A stretch of DNA of 39,582 bases, taken from IMG/VR virus record IMGVR_UViG_3300022917_000006, positions 1-39,582 of that record; one strand, 5' to 3'. Under the pieces are notes generated by a model. That model was not told the DNA's origin. It did not search any database and saw only the letters and a program-made list of their open reading frames with translations. The position numbers and the translations under genes were made by a program. This DNA comes from a virus. Lineage: Duplodnaviria; Caudoviricetes. Of the stretch, positions 1,091 to 37,689 are shown piece after piece; position 1 is the first letter of the stretch, and each line of letters opens with the position of its first letter.

Positions 1091-1936
1091 ATGTCAGACC
1101 AAAACACACCACTACCACTAGATGGCAGTCAATCGGAAGAACAGGTCACCGATACAGACCAGCAGACTACAGACAATCAACAACTGGATGCTGCTGGTGA
1201 AGACCAGGCCGGTAGTCAGCAAGAAGAGCAATCAAACGACCAGAACGTGGAACAGCAGGGGGAAACTCAGCTGAGCAGAAGTGAACGTCGTCAACAACGC
1301 TATGCTGATAAGATGGCAGACCGTCTTCGAAACCAATCTGAGCAAGATGCTCAATTTGGAAAACAGCTCTTTTCAAACGATAATCAATACAACCCAATTC
1401 AGTATGACCAGAGTACAGAGTTTGATGTAGAACAACTCTCGAATGATCGCCGCCAATACGGTCAGCAAACATTCAATGAGGGTGTTCGTCAGGGCCAGGC
1501 ATTTTACGAGGCAGAGCGTTTCGCAGATAGGCTTGATACCGACATTGACCGAGTACTTAATAAGCGGGATGATATTGATGACGTAACTGAGCGATTACTT
1601 GTTGAATCGTACCTTGACAAAGTTGGAGCTCGTGAGGATAAGAACGGACGTATCGTTATATCAAATCCTAATCTTAGATTCCGTGATTTTGCAGAATCGA
1701 AGTTGAAGGAAATTGACGATCTTGTCCAATCAAAGATCTCACAGTCTAGTAAAAATATTGTCTCTCAGGCAGCTAATACTGGTGTTCGCCCTAATGGAGC
1801 AGCCCAGGCTTCCCTTACTAATCTATCTGATAGTGACCTAGTCGAAAAGCTACGTGCTGCCGACATTGATACTCCAGAAGGAAAGAAACTAATGGAAGAG
1901 AACCGACGCCGACAGAGGGCAATCATTGGATTTTAG
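1091..1936 (+). CDS. Capsid scaffolding protein (putative)
   Basis: Acidic Q/E/D-rich disordered N-terminus, helical core, directly upstream of the capsid gene. Confidence 0.75.
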   Translation: MSDQNTPLPLDGSQSEEQVTDTDQQTTDNQQLDAAGEDQAGSQQEEQSNDQNVEQQGETQLSRSERRQQRYADKMADRLRNQSEQDAQFGKQLFSNDNQYNPIQYDQSTEFDVEQLSNDRRQYGQQTFNEGVRQGQAFYEAERFADRLDTDIDRVLNKRDDIDDVTERLLVESYLDKVGAREDKNGRIVISNPNLRFRDFAESKLKEIDDLVQSKISQSSKNIVSQAANTGVRPNGAAQASLTNLSDSDLVEKLRAADIDTPEGKKLMEENRRRQRAIIGF

Positions 1937-3827: not shown

Positions 3828-4047
3828 CGACTCTAAAAACCGTCGTACTATACCAAGTATAGCAACTATGACGAACAAAAAACGAACAACTGCTGAGCTT
3901 AAGGACTATTCACTTAAGTCAGTCGTAACCCTCCAATGGCATATGAATCGTAAGGCAACTGAAGACCAGGTGTTTAAGATAGATATAAATGGTGAGACTG
4001 CACTTGTCAGTCTTGAGGAGCTATTGAGTTATACCAGGCTTATGTGA
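3814..4047 (+). CDS. Hypothetical protein
   Basis: ORF overlapping the groES stop. Confidence 0.6.
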   Translation: MIKNNDSKNRRTIPSIATMTNKKRTTAELKDYSLKSVVTLQWHMNRKATEDQVFKIDINGETALVSLEELLSYTRLM

Positions 4048-4090
4048 TATATTCAAAGTAAATCCTATCACGGAATATAGAAACTATCAG

Positions 4091-4127
4091 ATGGTCGGAA
4101 CACTAGAGATGTGTTTCGGCTGTTTTT
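4091..4127 (+). terminator. Terminator-like hairpin just upstream of the RBS of 4143
   Basis: ATGGTCGGAACAC/GTGTTTCGGCTGT stem with G-U pairs, then TTTT. Confidence 0.6.
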
Positions 4128-4142
4128 AAAAGGAAAACAAAA

Positions 4143-5219
4143 ATGTTTAACGCACCGTTCAATCCAGGTACACATGGAAACCCAGGCTCAGGGGGTGTAA
4201 TCCCTGGCATTAACTTTGGAGCTATCTGGGATAAATACGTAAATGGAAACTCAGCAGCAGATATTATCCCTGGTGCCAATTTCAGTGGTGGTGGCGGTCA
4301 AAGCAACAATGCTGGTCCAACCGCTGATGCTCCTCAAGCACCAACTGTAAACAACTCCAATGGTGGCTACTCTGGCGGAACAGGTGCTAGTCGTAGCGGA
4401 TATGCAACTAACGCAGTAGCTGATCCACGTGTTGCCATACGTGCGCAAGCACAACGAGCTCGCGATACAGCTATTGGCGCAGGACGGAACTCATTCGGAG
4501 ACCTTAACCGGGGCTACCAATCTGGCATAGATGGTCTACTTCAGAAGCTACGAGTTGGACAACAAGGTATTGACCAGGGCAGAGAGAACAATGCCCTTAA
4601 TAGGATTCGCTCTCTAAGTGACCTACGAGACTCAGTACGCCAGGGCATTCAGTCTGGATCAGTACAGCTTTCTAACAACAATGCTCTGGACAGTTCAGCC
4701 TCAGAGGCGCTCGCCAAAGGTTATGGACGCTTCGGAACTCAACAGCAAGGTGATATTCTAAATGAATTTGCACTAGTTAACCGAGATATTGATACACAAC
4801 AGTCCAACCTCAATCTCGAGCGAGACCAGGGTGTACGTGACCTAGAGAATTATAAGTTGTCCCAGGCTAACCAAATCGGTAACAGCGTATATGACCGACT
4901 TGCTGCTATTAGTGAGTCAGCTCTTAGCCAGGGTGTCGACGGTGCTGTAGGTGATGTCAACCAACTTAAGCAGCAAATCATTAATGAAGCACTATCTGCC
5001 ATCCAAGGTCTTGACCAACAGCTACGAGGCAACCTAGGTGGTATCCAGGCACTCGGTCAGGATGCTGTTGAAGCTAACGCATACAAGCTTGCAAATGCTG
5101 GTGGCGCTGCACTTCCTCAGAACAGCTTTAGTTACGAAAGCGCTCCAGGTATGGGACCAATTCAGAACGGTGCGCCAATAGCACAATTCCCAATGGCACG
5201 TCGAAGAGAAAACCAATAA
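4143..5219 (+). CDS. Internal virion (DNA ejection) protein, putative
   Basis: G/N/Q/A-rich, coiled-coil-like, in the podovirus ejection-protein position. Confidence 0.6.
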   Translation: MFNAPFNPGTHGNPGSGGVIPGINFGAIWDKYVNGNSAADIIPGANFSGGGGQSNNAGPTADAPQAPTVNNSNGGYSGGTGASRSGYATNAVADPRVAIRAQAQRARDTAIGAGRNSFGDLNRGYQSGIDGLLQKLRVGQQGIDQGRENNALNRIRSLSDLRDSVRQGIQSGSVQLSNNNALDSSASEALAKGYGRFGTQQQGDILNEFALVNRDIDTQQSNLNLERDQGVRDLENYKLSQANQIGNSVYDRLAAISESALSQGVDGAVGDVNQLKQQIINEALSAIQGLDQQLRGNLGGIQALGQDAVEANAYKLANAGGAALPQNSFSYESAPGMGPIQNGAPIAQFPMARRRENQ

Positions 5220-31619: not shown

Positions 31620-31642
31620 ATCCACTCCTTATTCTTGTTATA

Positions 31643-32513
31643 TTATCAAGTGTAGTACTAGGCTTCTGATGTCTCTCAACTACCACAAGCCTACTACTAC
31701 ACCGATAAAGCATCACACAATAATATGGGTAGCTAGTAGTAAACCTGGCTTTTTTACTTACTTAGCTCGAAAGCCGTGCAAAGCCGCAGATCACTCTTTT
31801 GGCCGCCCTTCTACTACTAGCTTTTATCTACACAAGCATCACCTGAGGTCTAGCGCAAAGGCGATGTGCTCTTGTGTAGACAGTTGAATATACGAGGCGG
31901 CTTTCAGTACGATTCTCAGTACCCAGCAAAGTCACTTATGTCCCCCTGTTTTTGGACTCCTTATATATTCAACTGTTGGAGTATGTAGGCATGGTGCTGG
32001 AAGCAAGGTGATCAAGATTTTACCGTGTACATTGGAAGCTTCCCCAACCAAGGGGCGATCACGCCCGGTAGCTCTTACTGCCAGCTTCACACCTACATAC
32101 TCAGACGACACAAGTTCTTCAGTTCAAACCTAGATACCGCAAGGTATCACTTGTGCCGCCATATTATTGTGTGATTGTTATAGAGCATGAGAGAGCGCTG
32201 GTGATTAGCGGACTCTCACCGTGCACTCAATTTATTGATTATCTATCCGTCGTAAAGGCACGATCCAGACAACCAGTGCCGCATTGCACGCTCACTGCTG
32301 CTCTATAACTGTTATAAGACATGGTCTGGTGGTAAAGCAGGGATTTGCACCCTGCATGAAGATAATTATTCCAATGGATTGAACCCAATCAAGCCGTACC
32401 TCTTACTAACTCGAAAGTCGTGATTGTCGGCACACAGTGAGGCCGTGTTACCCTCTTACCTATCTAGCGTCTACCTATTCCGCCATTTACCATTAGCACC
32501 ACTGCCTTATAAC
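31643..32513 (-). ncRNA. Array of stem-enclosed structured RNA modules (large ncRNA/leader)
   Basis: Eight abutting modules closed by long inverted repeats plus a 17-bp outer helix; no credible ORF; several A-C oppositions on + become G-U on -. Confidence 0.75.
32327..32492 (-). ncRNA. tRNA-like element with 94-nt insert in the anticodon arm
   Basis: GGUAAA/UUUACC acceptor plus ACCA, D-arm GCG-GAAUAGGUAGA-CGC, AGAUAG/UUAUCU stem, T-arm GCAGGG-UGCAAAU-CCCUGC. Confidence 0.75.
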
Positions 32514-32678
32514 GTCGCTAAATTGTTAATGTGCTTTGTTTCAAACTATCAACGACTGTATTTACGCCAACCAGTGGCTTCAAAGCTCACCAGCTCGCTT
32601 GAATCCTATTCTACTTAGTTAGGTTGCTTGAACTTGCAGAGCTTTCGTCGTGCAGTGGTTGCTCATCTAACTGTTGTT

Positions 32679-32708
32679 AGTATAGTCTATTAAGCCTGTG
32701 CTTGTCAA
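32679..32708 (-). promoter_or_regulatory. Leftward early promoter
   Basis: TTGACA-N18-TATACT on minus strand. Confidence 0.7.
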
Positions 32709-32748: not shown

Positions 32749-32768
32749 TGCGAATAACTTGTGGATAA
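32749..32768. promoter_or_regulatory. Tandem DnaA boxes
   Basis: TGCGAATAA (imperfect) + CT + TGTGGATAA (perfect) in the divergent intergenic region. Confidence 0.5.
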
Positions 32769-32774
32769 ATACAG

Positions 32775-32803
32775 TAGACAACAGGGCTAGTATGGCCTAT
32801 AAT
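32775..32803 (+). promoter_or_regulatory. Rightward promoter upstream of terS
   Basis: TAGACA-N17-TATAAT; a second TG-G-TATTAT at 32813-32821 would give a leaderless mRNA. Confidence 0.6.
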
Positions 32804-32827
32804 AGAGATAAGTGGTATTATTCAGAT

Positions 32828-33310
32828 ATGAGTGATACACGTCTTAATCAAGGTAGTAGTTCCGGTAATCCCGCATTCTCCGCCGGAGTGAAGGAAGTTC
32901 CCAAGCTTACAAGGAAGCAAAGAGCATTCGTAGAGTATATACTAGCTCATCCTGAAGAGAGTAACACTAAAGCAGCATTAGCAGCCTACCCAAACGTTAC
33001 CTATGGTACAGCTAGACAGATAGCAGTTGACAATATGACAAAGCCTAGCATAGTAATGGCTTTAGGTGAAGCTAATGACATCGTAGAATCAACGCTTACC
33101 TCTGTTATAAAGGACTGGGGCGCATCTCAAGACGTCCAAGAACGCTCTCTAGCAATCAATACAGCACGATATGTACACGATAAAATCCACGGCAAAGCAA
33201 CCCAGAGAACAGAGGTCACAAGCAACGTTGTAAGCATATCTCTAGATCTCACATCAGGTTCAGCAGGAGACGTTCCACAAGACGTTCTAAGGGCCTTAGA
33301 GGCGTCTTAA
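32828..33310 (+). CDS. terS: Terminase small subunit
   Basis: KLTRKQRAFVEYI......TKAALAAY.....TARQIAVDNMTKPSI HTH signature; D.IHGKATQR.E. Confidence 0.85.
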   Translation: MSDTRLNQGSSSGNPAFSAGVKEVPKLTRKQRAFVEYILAHPEESNTKAALAAYPNVTYGTARQIAVDNMTKPSIVMALGEANDIVESTLTSVIKDWGASQDVQERSLAINTARYVHDKIHGKATQRTEVTSNVVSISLDLTSGSAGDVPQDVLRALEAS

Positions 33311-33620
33311 GCAACAAAGATGGGTATATACTCATCTCAACAAGAAAAGTCTAACGTCGCAAAATATACATTTTAAGACCCATCACTAACAGGGGTAGGC
33401 TACCTCTTACTTACCCTTTAAATGGAACATCATACACATGCGATACATACAATAACAGGGGTATACCCCCCACCTCTTGGTGGCTTGCAGGTTCCATGGT
33501 TGATTGTATAGTATAGTGATAACGGTAATGACGGACCCATTTGATTCATATATATACACCCGTTCTAGGCGTACATAGACCCGGTGTATACCTGTATATG
33601 TACGTTATTTATAATACGTA

Positions 33621-33668
33621 ATGTATCTATTGATGTACGTATTAATGTACGCTATAATGTACATATGA
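33621..33668 (+). promoter_or_regulatory. Promoter overlapped by four 12-bp-phased ATGTA(C/T) operator repeats
   Basis: TTGATG(33630)-N17-TATAAT(33653); repeats at 33621, 33633, 33645, 33657. Confidence 0.75.
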
Positions 33669-34084
33669 GTAAAGACTATGTAACAATCAGTGAGTTTAGG
33701 AAGAACACTAAAGTCATCTTAGATGGGGCTAAGGGGGACGCTATAACACTTCGTAGAGGTGATGATCTTTTTGAAATGAAGTACGTTGGCAATATCGTAA
33801 CTGACCTTTTCGACAAGATTAAACAAGCTAACAAGAAGACAAAGCCCGTCGAGGAGGAAGCGTATAAACATCGCTATAACGTAACACCAGCAGAGAATAC
33901 GGTAACGGTGAACCTAATTCCTAAGCGAACCAAGCACACTATCTTAGATGAGATAAACGCCTTAGAGGCTCGGCAAAAAGAAGAGCTGGAGTTTTGTCAG
34001 GATGCTGGGGCTGCAAAGGATGTGTCTCATAGGTATAAACAGGAGATTGGTGGCCTCTGGACTGAATACCGAGAAGCAGCATGA
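33665..34084 (+). CDS. Phd/YefM-like DNA-binding domain protein (orphan antitoxin-like), probably leaderless
   Basis: MSKDYVTISEFRKNTKVILD.....ITLRR; ATG 7 nt after the -10. Confidence 0.65.
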   Translation: MSKDYVTISEFRKNTKVILDGAKGDAITLRRGDDLFEMKYVGNIVTDLFDKIKQANKKTKPVEEEAYKHRYNVTPAENTVTVNLIPKRTKHTILDEINALEARQKEELEFCQDAGAAKDVSHRYKQEIGGLWTEYREAA

Positions 34085-34109
34085 TATACTAATAGTGTGG
34101 TACCCCAAC

Positions 34110-34148
34110 AAAAGAATACCCCGGATTTTACCCCGGGGCTCTTTTATT
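34110..34148. terminator. Bidirectional terminator
   Basis: CCCCGG/CCGGGG stem flanked by AAAAGA and TCTTTT between converging genes. Confidence 0.7.
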
Positions 34149-34161
34149 TAGTGGGAGGGTG

Positions 34162-34407
34162 TTACTCCTCGGTTGAAGGTGCTTCCACTTTTACCAGGTC
34201 CCATTCCTCCATGAGGTCGATGAAGTCGTTGTAGCGCTTCTCCTCATGCTCGGGGATTGGTCGGTAAAGGAAGCCTTGCACGGCCCGAACACGTATCCAG
34301 GAGCCTGGTACGCTGCGCTGGGCTATCTCCAGAAAGTAGGAGGTGCCTGGGCGGTAGGCATGGGTTCCATACTCCCCTTTATACGTCGCATATATGTAGC
34401 GTCTCAT
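34162..34407 (-). CDS. Hypothetical protein
   Basis: ATGA-coupled to 34404..34742. Confidence 0.65.
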   Translation of the reverse strand: MRRYIYATYKGEYGTHAYRPGTSYFLEIAQRSVPGSWIRVRAVQGFLYRPIPEHEEKRYNDFIDLMEEWDLVKVEAPSTEE

Positions 34408-34742
34408 ACGCAGCCTTTCGTGTAGGGTTCGATGAAGGCGCTTGCTTCTTCCTTAGTGGCGGTATCGAGCTTCTCCAGGGCGGCGAGGCTGTCCTTGGTA
34501 AGCCATGAGGATAGGTTGTTTGCAACGCAACCACAGTAGCTGTCCTCTCCACCGGCTTTCTTGCAGTCGGTAGTGAACTGGGCATATACCTGCTCACGTT
34601 GGCCTTTAGAGACGCTGTCAGGAGCGCTCTGCTGCTTTGGGGATGCCTGCATGGCAATGCTTACCAGGATGAGGACGATGACCCCCAGGATGCCCCAGGT
34701 AAGTAGCTTAATGGGCTTAGATTTAGTTTGGTTGTTATCCAT
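34404..34742 (-). CDS. Membrane-anchored exported Cys protein (possible superinfection-exclusion moron)
   Basis: N-terminal TM; C....G...YCGC...C motif; GGAG RBS; own promoter. Confidence 0.65.
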   Translation of the reverse strand: MDNNQTKSKPIKLLTWGILGVIVLILVSIAMQASPKQQSAPDSVSKGQREQVYAQFTTDCKKAGGEDSYCGCVANNLSSWLTKDSLAALEKLDTATKEEASAFIEPYTKGCV

Positions 34743-34807
34743 TATTGGACTCCACTTCTCCGCTTACGAGGCAGGATTATGATTGGTTGTTACCGGTAAC
34801 TCTCCGC

Positions 34808-34835
34808 ATTATAAGCATAATTGCTGTAATGTCAA
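34808..34835 (-). promoter_or_regulatory. Promoter of the two-gene leftward moron
   Basis: TTGACA-N16-TATAAT on minus strand. Confidence 0.7.
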
Positions 34836-35147
34836 GTATTTTTTGACATGTAGTGGGGTATAAGGGTCCTCTATCCCCTGCTAAAGGGGTAGCCGGTATT
34901 CCTCTTTTACAGCTTAGTCTTACGTATAGGCCCCATGCTTGCCGGCTCGACTTCCTGTTCAGCACTTGGCTTCAAGGTCTCACGTTGCCCGGCATTAGTA
35001 TCACCACTCGTTATACGCTCGATACTTTCACTATCAAGAACTCGGCAGGTCCCCGTCGACAGGACAGTCGGAGCGGGAATTCTAGGAATCCTCGATAGCA
35101 CCCTACAGTTTTATAAAGAACTGCGAACTTTTTTGTTGTAAAAGTAT

Positions 35148-35225
35148 TTGCATACAAACTTTTGGTGTGCTATAATAAAGACATCAAAAGAGGCTTGCCA
35201 GGGGTAACACCCTGGTTTTTCTTTT
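35148..35225 (+). ncRNA. Promoter-terminator mini-unit (candidate ~45-nt sRNA)
   Basis: TTGCAT-N17-TATAAT with TG extension, then CCAGGG/CCCTGG stem and T tract; no ORF. Confidence 0.5.
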
Positions 35226-35297
35226 ACCTGTATACCCCCTACTCGCTTTCAAAAGAGGCTTTCGGTTACACTTATAGTAGCACGGTAGACTGGTTCA

Positions 35298-35390
35298 TGC
35301 TATACTAAATTTGTTATTACCTGAGGGACTCCACTCCATTTCTGGAAATAACAGATGAGACAGCTTGGCCCCACCCCCAGGCTGTTTTTT
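35298..35390 (+). ncRNA. Promoter-terminator mini-unit (candidate ~80-nt sRNA)
   Basis: TGCTATACT, hairpin ATTTGTTATT/AATAACAGAT, terminator ACAGCTTGG/CCAGGCTGT plus T tract. Confidence 0.45.
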
Positions 35391-35392
35391 AT

Positions 35393-35421
35393 TTGACAAC
35401 ATCTTACTGGGGTACTATACT
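35393..35421 (+). promoter_or_regulatory. Promoter of the packaging/structural operon
   Basis: TTGACA-N17-TATACT. Confidence 0.8.
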
Positions 35422-35480
35422 TTATATAACACCTGTATAGAGGGGTAGTAACAAGCCGTAGAGGCATAAAAATAGGGGGA

Positions 35481-36332
35481 ATGATGGCCAGAACGCCACT
35501 TACCGAAGAACAGAAACAAGCCTTAAGGGAGCGTCTCCAAAAAGCCAGAGATGCGAAAAAGGAAAAAGTTTCCGAGCCTAATACAAACACTGAGGGTCAG
35601 CAGCCCCAAACACCAAAAGAACCTACCGTTAACCCTACACCAGTAAGTGACTCCAGGATTTCACTTACCCAGGAGCAATTCGACCAGTTGCTTAATCGCA
35701 TCTCTGTTGCCGAGGCAGCGATTGCCAATCGTAGCATTACTCCTGAGCAGGCGATTACCGCCAAAGCTGAGATGCAAGGGGTATCGATGGGCAAGAATGG
35801 CCTCCAGGGGATCATCTACAAATGGCCTATTGAGCAGGACTATTACCCGAATCCGGCGCAGCGTATCCTTGATATGCCGGAGCTTGCTCGCTACGCACCG
35901 CACATGAACTACGAGATTAAGTGGGAAGTTTCCGGTGTCGAGTACGAGAAGGCTAACATCAATTACGCGGAACCTCGCTTCCAGGTAACGATCCTACGCA
36001 TTATGTTTGATGAGAATGGTGAACCCACTAACCAACGCGCTATTGTTGGTAAGCACATGCAGCATGAAGACGAGAATGTTGTCCGCATGATTGCCCGTGA
36101 TATGGGCCTTGATACCACCGATGAGCGTGCCTTAATGGATGAAGTTCGTTTCCAACGTATTCGCCGATGGGTACTTGATCTTCTTACTCCGCACCGCCAG
36201 CAGGACCGCGTAGAATCGGTTCGTGAGATGGTAATTGAAGGTAAAGTTGTACCTGTTATTGAAATCGATACCAACGCCGATAAGTCGATTATGGTAGATA
36301 CCACCAGCTCCCTAAAACAACACCTAGGATAA
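35481..36332 (+). CDS. Hypothetical protein upstream of terL
   Basis: 283-aa ORF; N-terminal LTEEQKQALRERLQKAR motif. Confidence 0.75.
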   Translation: MMARTPLTEEQKQALRERLQKARDAKKEKVSEPNTNTEGQQPQTPKEPTVNPTPVSDSRISLTQEQFDQLLNRISVAEAAIANRSITPEQAITAKAEMQGVSMGKNGLQGIIYKWPIEQDYYPNPAQRILDMPELARYAPHMNYEIKWEVSGVEYEKANINYAEPRFQVTILRIMFDENGEPTNQRAIVGKHMQHEDENVVRMIARDMGLDTTDERALMDEVRFQRIRRWVLDLLTPHRQQDRVESVREMVIEGKVVPVIEIDTNADKSIMVDTTSSLKQHLG

Positions 36333-36333
36333 T

Positions 36334-37689
36334 ATGATCTACAAACCGCATGCGAGGCAGGTAACAGCCCATGCTGACGACCATGACCGACGCGTCCTCT
36401 TATGGGGGCGCCAGGTCGGTAAGACCTACTGGTCAGTTAACGAAGCATGGATAAAAGCCGTTCAAAAGCAGGGACGGTATCTTATCGTGTTTCCTACGTA
36501 TGCACAGGCAAAGAACACGGTCTGGGCCCAGTATCTGCACCTTATCCCAAAGGAGCTGATTGCCAAGATCGATAACACGGAGTTGATCATTACGCTCAAA
36601 CATCTTAAGGGGCCAATGGCATTACCGGGTAAAGGCTGGCAGGCTATCATCCATGATCCTACCATGCCGCCAAGTACCATTGAACTTAAAGGAAGTGACG
36701 AGGCAGATCGACTCCGTGGCCAAAAGGCTAATGGAATAATCTTTGATGAGTATGCTATCCAAAAGCCCGAAAACTGGAAGACTGTCTTCGAACCAATGTT
36801 CTCAACCACCAATGGATGGGCAGCATTTATCTCCACGCCAAAGGGATACAATCACTTTTACAAGATGGTGTCGGACATTGAGACTGGTCGCTCAGACGAG
36901 CGTTGGAGCCTCTCTAAGGCCACCTGGCGAGACAACCCGGCTATTGATAAATCCTATATCGAAGGCATCAAGAAGGAGGCGCTAGCCACAGGGGACATGC
37001 CAGCATTCCTTCAGGAGTACGAGCTCGAGTTTCGATCAGTTGAGGGTTCAGTATTTCCAGACTTCAAGAATGATATACATGTCATTAAGCCGGATGAGCT
37101 ACCAGCCCATGGCCAAAACTGGATCACCTTTGACTTTGGTTGGGCAGATGATCACCCGACAGCTATTAACTTCGTGCGCATCACCAATGATCAAGTGTGG
37201 TATGTTCATGATGAGATCCACGTTACCAAGACACCACTCGAGGACAGTGTTGAATTACTAGTTCAGCGCGCTGCGGGCATGAAGATACAAGGAGTAGTGG
37301 CAGATTCAGCCCGCCCCGACTTAATCGATATACTCCGCCAAAGACTTCAGCCTCGTGGTATAAACGTCATAGAGGCCCCTAAACGCCCCAACTCTGTGCC
37401 GACTGGCATATTATTACTTGGACAGATGATACGCCCCAGACTGCAACTTATTGGCCTTCCACGCCCATCTTTCTACGTGACGAACAACTGCGAAGAAACC
37501 ATCAAAAACTTCGAGGGATATAGGTACCCAAGTAAAAAGGAAGACCGTAAAACTACCGAAATACCGATTAAGAAAGATGATGATCATATTGATGGTATAA
37601 GATACCTCGCACTTTACCTAAAATATGGTACAGTAAAGGAAGAAAAGATACGCCTTAAAAACCCCTTCCAAAACGAATATGGGATATAG
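36334..37689 (+). CDS. terL: Terminase large subunit
   Basis: Walker A GRQVGKT, PTY.QA, LRG....IIFDE Walker B, ISTPKG.N, QEY...F, DFG...PT, DSARPD, DDHIDGIRY nuclease motifs. Confidence 0.96.
   Translation: MIYKPHARQVTAHADDHDRRVLLWGRQVGKTYWSVNEAWIKAVQKQGRYLIVFPTYAQAKNTVWAQYLHLIPKELIAKIDNTELIITLKHLKGPMALPGKGWQAIIHDPTMPPSTIELKGSDEADRLRGQKANGIIFDEYAIQKPENWKTVFEPMFSTTNGWAAFISTPKGYNHFYKMVSDIETGRSDERWSLSKATWRDNPAIDKSYIEGIKKEALATGDMPAFLQEYELEFRSVEGSVFPDFKNDIHVIKPDELPAHGQNWITFDFGWADDHPTAINFVRITNDQVWYVHDEIHVTKTPLEDSVELLVQRAAGMKIQGVVADSARPDLIDILRQRLQPRGINVIEAPKRPNSVPTGILLLGQMIRPRLQLIGLPRPSFYVTNNCEETIKNFEGYRYPSKKEDRKTTEIPIKKDDDHIDGIRYLALYLKYGTVKEEKIRLKNPFQNEYGI

What the first reader, a model, noticed from the sequence alone, without database searches (positions are those of the whole stretch)
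31757..32422. Repeated UUCG-hairpin motif with a compensatory base-pair change in two different modules
Seen on the minus strand: CACG-G-CU-UUCG-AG-C-UAAGUAAG (31757-31778, module M2) and CACG-A-CU-UUCG-AG-U-UAGUAAG (32402-32422, inside the tRNA insert). The only substitutions swap a G-C pair for A-U, plus a 1-nt indel. Each copy sits inside an enclosing stem (GGCUUU/AAAGCC and CAAUCA/UGAUUG). This is within-genome evidence of selection on structure and suggests a shared ligand displayed on two scaffolds.
Basis: seen in the sequence. Interest (0 to 1): 0.75.

Follow-up and report, generated by a model that had tools for sequence, protein, structure and literature searches.

The report
Reused hairpin motif in phage RNAs
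An uncultured phage carries the same 21–22-base motif twice in a cluster of predicted folded RNAs, one of them a tRNA look-alike; it is likely a short copied segment kept in shape as a binding surface, but no third copy turned up in any collection searched, so its partner is untested.

Summary
Both copies are where stated, in an 880-base structured non-coding array of a complete 39.6-kb phage (z −8.1). One sits in the insert of a tRNA-Leu-like shell without an anticodon. That family is large (about 500 IMG/VR stretches), resembles T5 RNA1, and this scan has found it before on other DNA.

The statistics are modest. The repeat alone has p≈0.02, and such repeats arise at chance rate across 79 shells. 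The compensatory pattern has p≈0.006–0.04. The hairpin is weak (4 bp, pairing probability about 0.4).

No third credible copy was found in IMG/VR, JGI metagenomes, GTDB genomes or 44 related phage records. That argues against exact mimicry of a host RNA and leaves covariation untested.

Best reading (0.45): a short segment copied within the array and kept paired, presented at a helix tip on two RNAs as a protein-binding surface. Rivals are an internal folding module (0.2), chance (0.17) and neutral duplication (0.12). Interest 0.4.

The parts
31757..31778 (-). Motif copy 1 (module M2): 4-bp hairpin with G-C at the variable pair, followed by two A-rich unpaired stretches
32402..32422 (-). Motif copy 2 (shell insert): same hairpin with A-U at the variable pair, one A shorter
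31745..31787 (-). Arm of about 40 nt carrying copy 1 at its tip; closing stem 31780-31785 with 31747-31752 forms in the isolated arm and competes with other pairings in the full module
32391..32433 (-). Arm of about 40 nt carrying copy 2 at its tip; predicted closing stem 32426-32431 with 32393-32399
31731..31822 (-). Module M2: 13-bp closing stem, predicted multi-branch junction with a GNRA-capped arm (31788-31797) and the motif arm
   Evidence: (z -2.3)
32327..32492 (-). tRNA-Leu-like shell without anticodon: 7-bp acceptor (32486-32492 with 32330-32336) plus CCA, Leu-type D arm 32467-32485, insert stem 32448-32455 with 32358-32365, 6-bp T stem 32337-32355, 115-base insert
   Evidence: ARAGORN and Rfam miss it
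32455..32459 (-). UAAG element at the base of the insert stem, facing CAUG at 32355-32358; a recurrent junction of the shell family whose two strands resemble the motif's outer strands
32311..32513 (-). 11-bp outer stem bracketing the shell (32503-32513 with 32311-32321), similar to the closing stem of the next module
   Evidence: family D7
31645..32309 (-). Rest of the array: stem-bracketed modules 32177-32309, 32104-32160, 31979-32102, 31883-31973, 31827-31880, M2 and 31645-31706
   Evidence: z -2.3 to -7.5
32679..32708 (-). Sigma-70-like promoter (11 of 12 consensus matches) upstream of the array, facing away from terS
   Evidence: a consensus match only (6 sites found vs 5.4 in shuffles)

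Best explanation
The two copies likely come from one short segment copied within this phage's array of folded RNA modules, and are likely kept paired by selection so that the same small surface (UUCG-capped 4-bp hairpin plus unpaired A-rich bases) would be shown at the tip of an arm on two RNAs, probably to bind one protein. Shown: the two copies, the two-sided change, unrelated flanks, and the non-coding structured context. Predicted: the folds, the arm of about 40 nt around each copy, and transcription from the sigma-70-like promoter ahead of the small leftward genes. Inferred: the origin by copying, the selection, and a protein partner. The partner is most likely a host protein sequestered early in infection, since no RNA-binding domain was found among the phage ORFs scanned.
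For: 19 of 21 aligned bases are identical while the flanks show no similarity (upstream p=0.74, downstream p=0.90), so the conserved stretch is a small island. All three differences are structure-tolerant: a two-sided G-C/A-U swap and an indel in an unpaired A run. Joint chance per array is roughly 0.02 x 0.006-0.04. The insert shows another internal near-repeat (p=0.003, windows chosen after seeing it), so local copying does occur here. Both copies sit at the tip of an arm of about 40 nt with different closing stems. The array is strongly structured. Shell inserts vary widely (111 distinct inserts), as expected of exchangeable cargo. A phage RNA mimic that blocks a defence protein is known (PMC3594212, abstract seen).
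Against: There are only two sequences and one clean compensatory event. Insert-to-flank repeats this good occur in 2 of 79 shells, about what chance gives, and the array is not enriched in repeated 8- to 10-mers. The hairpin has about 0.4 probability in context, and neither arm folds better than shuffles (z -0.3 and -0.5). The outer C-G closing pair is in the near-best fold of copy 2, but costs about 2.7 kcal/mol in copy 1. No third copy was found in any search. No ligand was identified.
Confidence: 0.45

Rival explanations
1. The motif is an internal folding module with no outside ligand: a copy of the shell family's UAAG/YAUG junction (a U.A pair plus adjacent-A platform), capped by a short hairpin, that docks a loop or stiffens the RNA.
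For: In 26 of 115 shells with UAAG near the insert start and YAUG before the T arm, the G pairs with the Y in a fixed register: 15 of 26 have at least 4 bp, against 0-2 when slid (some rows are near-duplicates). The motif's outer strands read CACG and GUAAG. The second GUAAG of the insert lies in the near-repeat of the shell's own UAAG strand. M2 has a GNRA-capped arm.
Against: Two defining features of the 11-nt GNRA receptor fail: G stands where C2 is required, and the platform is closed by G-C instead of G.U, a change that cost 4.33 kcal/mol in PMC2275092 (passages seen). The shell's invariant AUG (12 sequences) reads ACG in the motif. The register is not the best one for copy 1.
Confidence: 0.2
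2. The match is chance: two unrelated structured segments share common words (UUCG, UAAG), and the reader picked the best repeat of a structured array.
For: 7 of 400 shuffles reach the score. 2 of 79 shells reach at most 1 of 60 shuffles, with about 2.6 expected. RUAAG occurs in 39 of 114 inserts and UUCG in 32 of 114. Many such arrays have been read in this scan (27 findings listed).
Against: Chance must also place both substitutions on partner positions with pairing kept (0.6-3.8%) and put the indel in an unpaired run.
Confidence: 0.17
3. A short neutral duplication whose two transitions happen to be complementary, or were made so by template switching in a quasi-palindrome, with no selection on the RNA.
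For: Both changes are transitions. Another near-repeat lies inside the insert, and M2 has a short near-tandem repeat just ahead of the motif. Template-switch correction of quasi-palindromes is recalled, not tested.
Against: The flanks are unrelated although the core is 90% identical. The arms of 3-4 bp are short, and as DNA the segments fold no better than shuffles (z about 0).
Confidence: 0.12
4. The motif copies a specific host rRNA, tRNA or mRNA site letter for letter, or it is a DNA operator.
For: The length suits a protein site, and the centre is near-palindromic as DNA.
Against: Only 3 GTDB hits and 3 foreign metagenome hits, all inside long open frames; the variable pair is broken in 5 of 6. 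No Rfam family matches the motif. There is no third site in the phage genome, and none near its promoters.
Confidence: 0.06

Closest known systems
Phage T5 RNA1 and RNA2 (AY543070, 'tRNA-like stable RNA with unknown functions') and T4 rnaC/rnaD
   Same: tRNA-like body with a folded insert in place of the anticodon arm. T5 RNA1 has a Leu-type D arm 3 differences from the window's and a T-loop word 2 differences away. T5 also lines up stem-closed stable RNAs (RNAI, RNAIII, RNAIV, RNA2H) beside it. T4 RNAC/RNAD are expressed and of unknown function (PMC9697503, passages seen).
   Different: None of the 9 T4/T5 RNAs holds the motif within 6 edits. This phage has no canonical tRNA. A motif shared between a tRNA-like insert and a non-tRNA module is not noted in those records.
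11-nt GAAA tetraloop receptor (UA-handle plus AA platform; PMC2275092)
   Same: The motif's outer strands can supply the U.A pair, the two adjacent As and the following G.
   Different: G replaces the required C2, and the platform is closed by G-C, not G.U. Not a member.
C-G-closed UUCG tetraloop
   Same: Loop sequence UUCG on a short stem.
   Different: Closed by U-A. The extra stability of the C-G-closed form is recalled; the computed hairpins are only -2.5 and -0.5 kcal/mol.
Phage PhiTE pseudo-ToxI repeats (RNA mimics of the ToxI antitoxin; PMC3594212)
   Same: A phage-encoded small RNA element that could occupy a host protein.
   Different: No host RNA template was found and no defence system is linked. 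The two copies are dispersed on different modules.

Membership tests
Canonical tRNA-Leu | Anticodon arm with 7-nt loop and long variable arm | tested here: not met
   115-base insert, no anticodon loop; ARAGORN 0, Rfam 0
Canonical tRNA-Leu | 7-bp acceptor plus 5-bp T stem | tested here: not met
   7+6 here; the sixth T-stem pair is present in 114 of 114 shells
T5 RNA1-like tRNA-like stable RNAs | Leu-type D arm, T arm and acceptor stem around a folded insert | tested here: met
T5 RNA1-like tRNA-like stable RNAs | Expressed as a discrete stable RNA | not testable with these tools
   the only run listed is DNA
11-nt tetraloop receptor | U3.A8 pair and A4-A5 platform | tested here: inconclusive
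   the bases are present in both copies; the geometry is not testable
11-nt tetraloop receptor | C2:G10 pair for A-minor docking | tested here: not met
   G at the C2 position in both copies
11-nt tetraloop receptor | G6:U7 wobble under the platform | tested here: not met
   G-C in both copies
C-G-closed UUCG tetraloop | C-G closing pair | tested here: not met
   U-A closing pair
T-loop motif | UUCGA pentaloop with a short 3' bulge on a helix | tested here: inconclusive
   this register is the best fold of copy 2 in the shell but needs a 4-base bulge in copy 1 and costs +2.4 vs -2.9 kcal/mol there
Self-cleaving ribozymes (HDV-like, hammerhead, twister) | Family covariance model or core descriptor | tested here: not met
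   no Rfam match at E up to 10; my rough HDV descriptor, written from recall, gave 0 hits
Host-RNA mimic | Matching site in bacterial stable RNA or leader | tested here: not met
   exact 19-position pattern only; 3 coding-frame hits in GTDB; looser mimicry not excluded, host unknown

The most novel reading that the evidence does not exclude
The motif is a natural aptamer that the phage has grafted onto two carriers, a tRNA-like shell and a stand-alone stem module, to soak up one host defence or RNA-metabolism protein early in infection. It would be the first defined functional unit in the cargo of a very large, unexplained family of phage tRNA-like RNAs, and a 22-base handle for finding what those cargos bind.
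Probability: 0.2. Interest if true: 0.75.

Novelty: new variant of a known kind. Interest (0 to 1): 0.4.

Why it matters
tRNA-like stable RNAs of T4 and T5 are still labelled 'unknown function'. The Leu-type shell family is large, with highly variable inserts and no Rfam model. If a small element moves between an insert and another module with its pairing intact, the inserts are built from portable binding units and the shell is a carrier. That would give a short, testable bait. As it stands this is one phage and one compensatory event, so it is a lead rather than a result.

Tried and rejected
Searches for a third copy, all negative:
- 19-position pattern: 0 in IMG/VR. 5 loci in metagenomes: 2 are the window's own contig, 3 lie in frames of 217-652 codons. 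3 in GTDB.
- Stem-free pattern: 83 IMG/VR loci; with the 3 GTDB hits, 52 distinct contexts, of which 1 has all three stem pairs and 48 lie in frames of at least 120 codons.
- Hairpin-fixed pattern: 89 loci, 64 distinct contexts, 0 with the upstream CAC.
- Shell-anchored pattern: 17 loci, none with the hairpin.
- Two-sequence covariance model: only the two copies below E=1 in the window; best E 0.12 in 80 TerL-relative loci; best E 0.23 in 99 shell loci; 0 of 44 related records, with the own genome as positive control.
- Structure descriptor over 1.96 Mb: 4 other hits, 3 in long frames and 1 inside a promoter spacer.
- blastn of M2 against GenBank phages gave only E=10 noise; the shell had no match in plasmids.

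Ideas dropped:
- That all of M2 is a paralogue of the insert: the flanks are not similar.
- That motif sharing is a family trait: 2 of 79 shells.
- Ribozyme readings.
- Heteroduplex of the two copies: the swap would put an A.C mismatch in it (reasoning).
- A 5-bp kiss between an M2 loop and an insert loop: too short to tell from chance, not tested.

Limits:
- No RNA holder listed; the one DNA run may be this DNA's source and shows no variants.
- The host could not be assigned.
- The closest relatives (TerL 94% and 82%, cluster of 7 members) could not be read as DNA.
- Pair probabilities for the outer closing pair and a sliding fold profile were not computed.
- Fremin 2023 supplements (PMC10690425): 3 of 6 files could not be searched and the other 3 had no hit, so a csRNA model of the shell there is not excluded.

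Full report
Setting. The window is a complete phage genome with direct terminal repeats. It has capsid, endolysin, exonuclease, HNH and terminase genes. No cultured relative is close (best TerL hit 33%), and the host is unknown. Between terS (32759-33310, +) and a run of small leftward genes lies a non-coding stretch, 31640-32520, that folds far better than shuffles on the minus strand (z -8.1, 0 of 20). It is a chain of modules, each closed by a stem of about 10-13 bp (z -2.3 to -7.5). A sigma-70-like promoter with 11 of 12 matches lies upstream on that strand (such sites are as frequent in shuffles, so this is a consensus match only). ARAGORN and Rfam find nothing at their thresholds.

The observation. 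Both copies are at the stated coordinates. They differ at two bases that pair with each other in a 4-bp hairpin and by one A in an unpaired run. The alignment is the best internal repeat of the cluster, but 7 of 400 dinucleotide shuffles equal it. Two random substitutions look compensatory in 0.6-1.2% of cluster 21-mers and in 1.9-3.8% of trials on this one. Together that is a few in ten thousand per array: suggestive, but not strong once many arrays are read. The hairpin is weak: the loop is closed by U-A, energies are -2.5 and -0.5 kcal/mol, and pairing probability in context is about 0.4. The one for the insert has probability 0.04, and another stem (32426-32431 with 32393-32399) is preferred. 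With that correction both copies still sit at the tip of an arm of about 40 nt, although neither arm folds better than shuffles (z -0.3 and -0.5).

The carrier of copy 2. It is a tRNA-Leu-like shell with no anticodon. A blastn lead to unannotated elements in Lactobacillus and Weissella phages led to a pattern scan: 119 loci were returned and about 500 stretches estimated in IMG/VR, with 111 distinct inserts. Among 114 inserts the sixth T-stem pair is universal, 89 have at least 7 acceptor pairs, 88 have YAUG before the T arm, and 6 have CCA at the expected place. Rfam has no model for the shells in the 15 loci tested. T5 RNA1 is the closest annotated relative. Earlier notes of this scan report the same family on other DNA; I tested the architecture myself but not their other claims. 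New here: in 26 of 115 shells a UAAG near the insert start pairs its G with the Y of YAUG in a fixed register (15 of 26 with at least 4 bp, 0-2 when slid). That fixes the window's insert stem as 32448-32455 with 32358-32365. The motif's outer strands resemble that junction, and the insert contains a near-repeat of the shell's own UAAG strand (p=0.003, chosen after the fact).

Is the motif found elsewhere? Not in any search made. Four pattern scans of IMG/VR, one of JGI metagenomes and one of GTDB gave only chance-like hits, mostly in open frames and mostly unpaired. A covariance model of the two copies found nothing significant in the rest of the window, in 80 TerL-relative loci, in 99 shell loci, or in 44 related records (control 73). 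A descriptor search of 1.96 Mb found four unrelated hits. The TerL relatives reached are distant (at most 52%), and only 3 of 44 carry a shell D arm. The 94% and 82% relatives exist but their DNA was out of reach. Motif sharing between insert and neighbours is not a family habit either: 2 of 79 shells with enough flank reach at most 1 of 60 shuffles, the window ranking second.

How it most likely works. A segment of about 22 bases was likely copied between two modules of the array. Its flanks are unrelated, so either the copied piece was that small or only this part was retained. All three differences keep the hairpin. A second two-sided change lies just outside a possible outer C-G pair, though that register costs about 2.7 kcal/mol in copy 1. 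Keeping a weak U-A-closed loop and the unpaired bases unchanged fits recognition of sequence better than plain stability; this is inference. I therefore commit, at 0.45, to a protein-binding surface shown on two RNAs of an early transcript. The partner is probably a host protein, since none of 54 non-structural or unassigned ORFs scanned against Pfam hit an RNA-binding family. The rivals are an internal folding module (0.2), chance (0.17), neutral duplication (0.12) and exact mimicry or a DNA operator (0.06). Sequence alone cannot separate the first two.

Comparison with known systems. The carrier works like T5 RNA1 and meets the sequence features I could test; expression was not testable. The motif is not an 11-nt receptor (two of its defining pairs fail; PMC2275092, passages seen), not a C-G-closed UUCG loop, and not a recognised ribozyme. 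A T-loop register is possible for copy 2 but poor for copy 1.

Papers seen: PMC10690425 passages and 3 of 6 supplements; PMC9697503 passages; PMC11571812 passages, uninformative (111); PMC3594212 abstract; the rest as search listings only. Searches showed no title or abstract start describing this shell family or motif. The library lacks most subscription papers, so this is not proof of absence.

Verdict. The feature is real, probably not chance, and private to this phage among the sequences I could reach. Interest 0.4; new variant of a known kind.

Noticed in passing
window 31979-32102 (-) and L315 1158-1282 (-), record G021: This module has a likely homologue next to a shell in a TerL relative; the two-sequence consensus fold has 27 pairs, 7 with two-sided changes. 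nhmmer did not detect it. Possibly an undescribed RNA family.
   Followed up: partly
L193 about 4040-4190 (-), record G019; L315 about 1360-1530 (-), record G021: Shells in two related phages carry a second insert of about 35-55 bases inside the T loop, in addition to the anticodon-arm insert.
   Followed up: no
shell family, L006-L143: Fixed-register UAAG/YAUG junction at the base of the insert stem in a subfamily (15 of 26 with at least 4 bp); T-loop-like words are enriched inside inserts (one hexamer in 11 of 114 vs 2.4 expected).
   Followed up: partly
window 32376-32386 (-): A second, one-base-short T-loop-like hairpin inside the shell insert.
   Followed up: no
window 32311-32513 and 32177-32309 (-): Adjacent modules are bracketed by nearly identical 11-bp stems two bases apart, a possible shared processing signal.
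   Followed up: no
L001 1493-1601; L002 1495-1620: Unannotated shells in cultured Lactobacillus phage Lenus and Weissella phage WC29P3: tractable models for the family.
   Followed up: partly
L426 and L440, around positions 385-435: Two unrelated viral contigs share about 45 bases of similarity around a related hairpin, beyond the search pattern; contexts differ and it lacks the motif's outer strands.
   Followed up: no
L010, shell insert and about 740 bases downstream: The only insert-to-neighbour repeat stronger than the window's: a shared T-arm-like segment.
   Followed up: no
window 33310-36334: terS and terL are separated by about 3 kb holding genes on both strands and a 283-aa ORF of no known family.
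   Followed up: no
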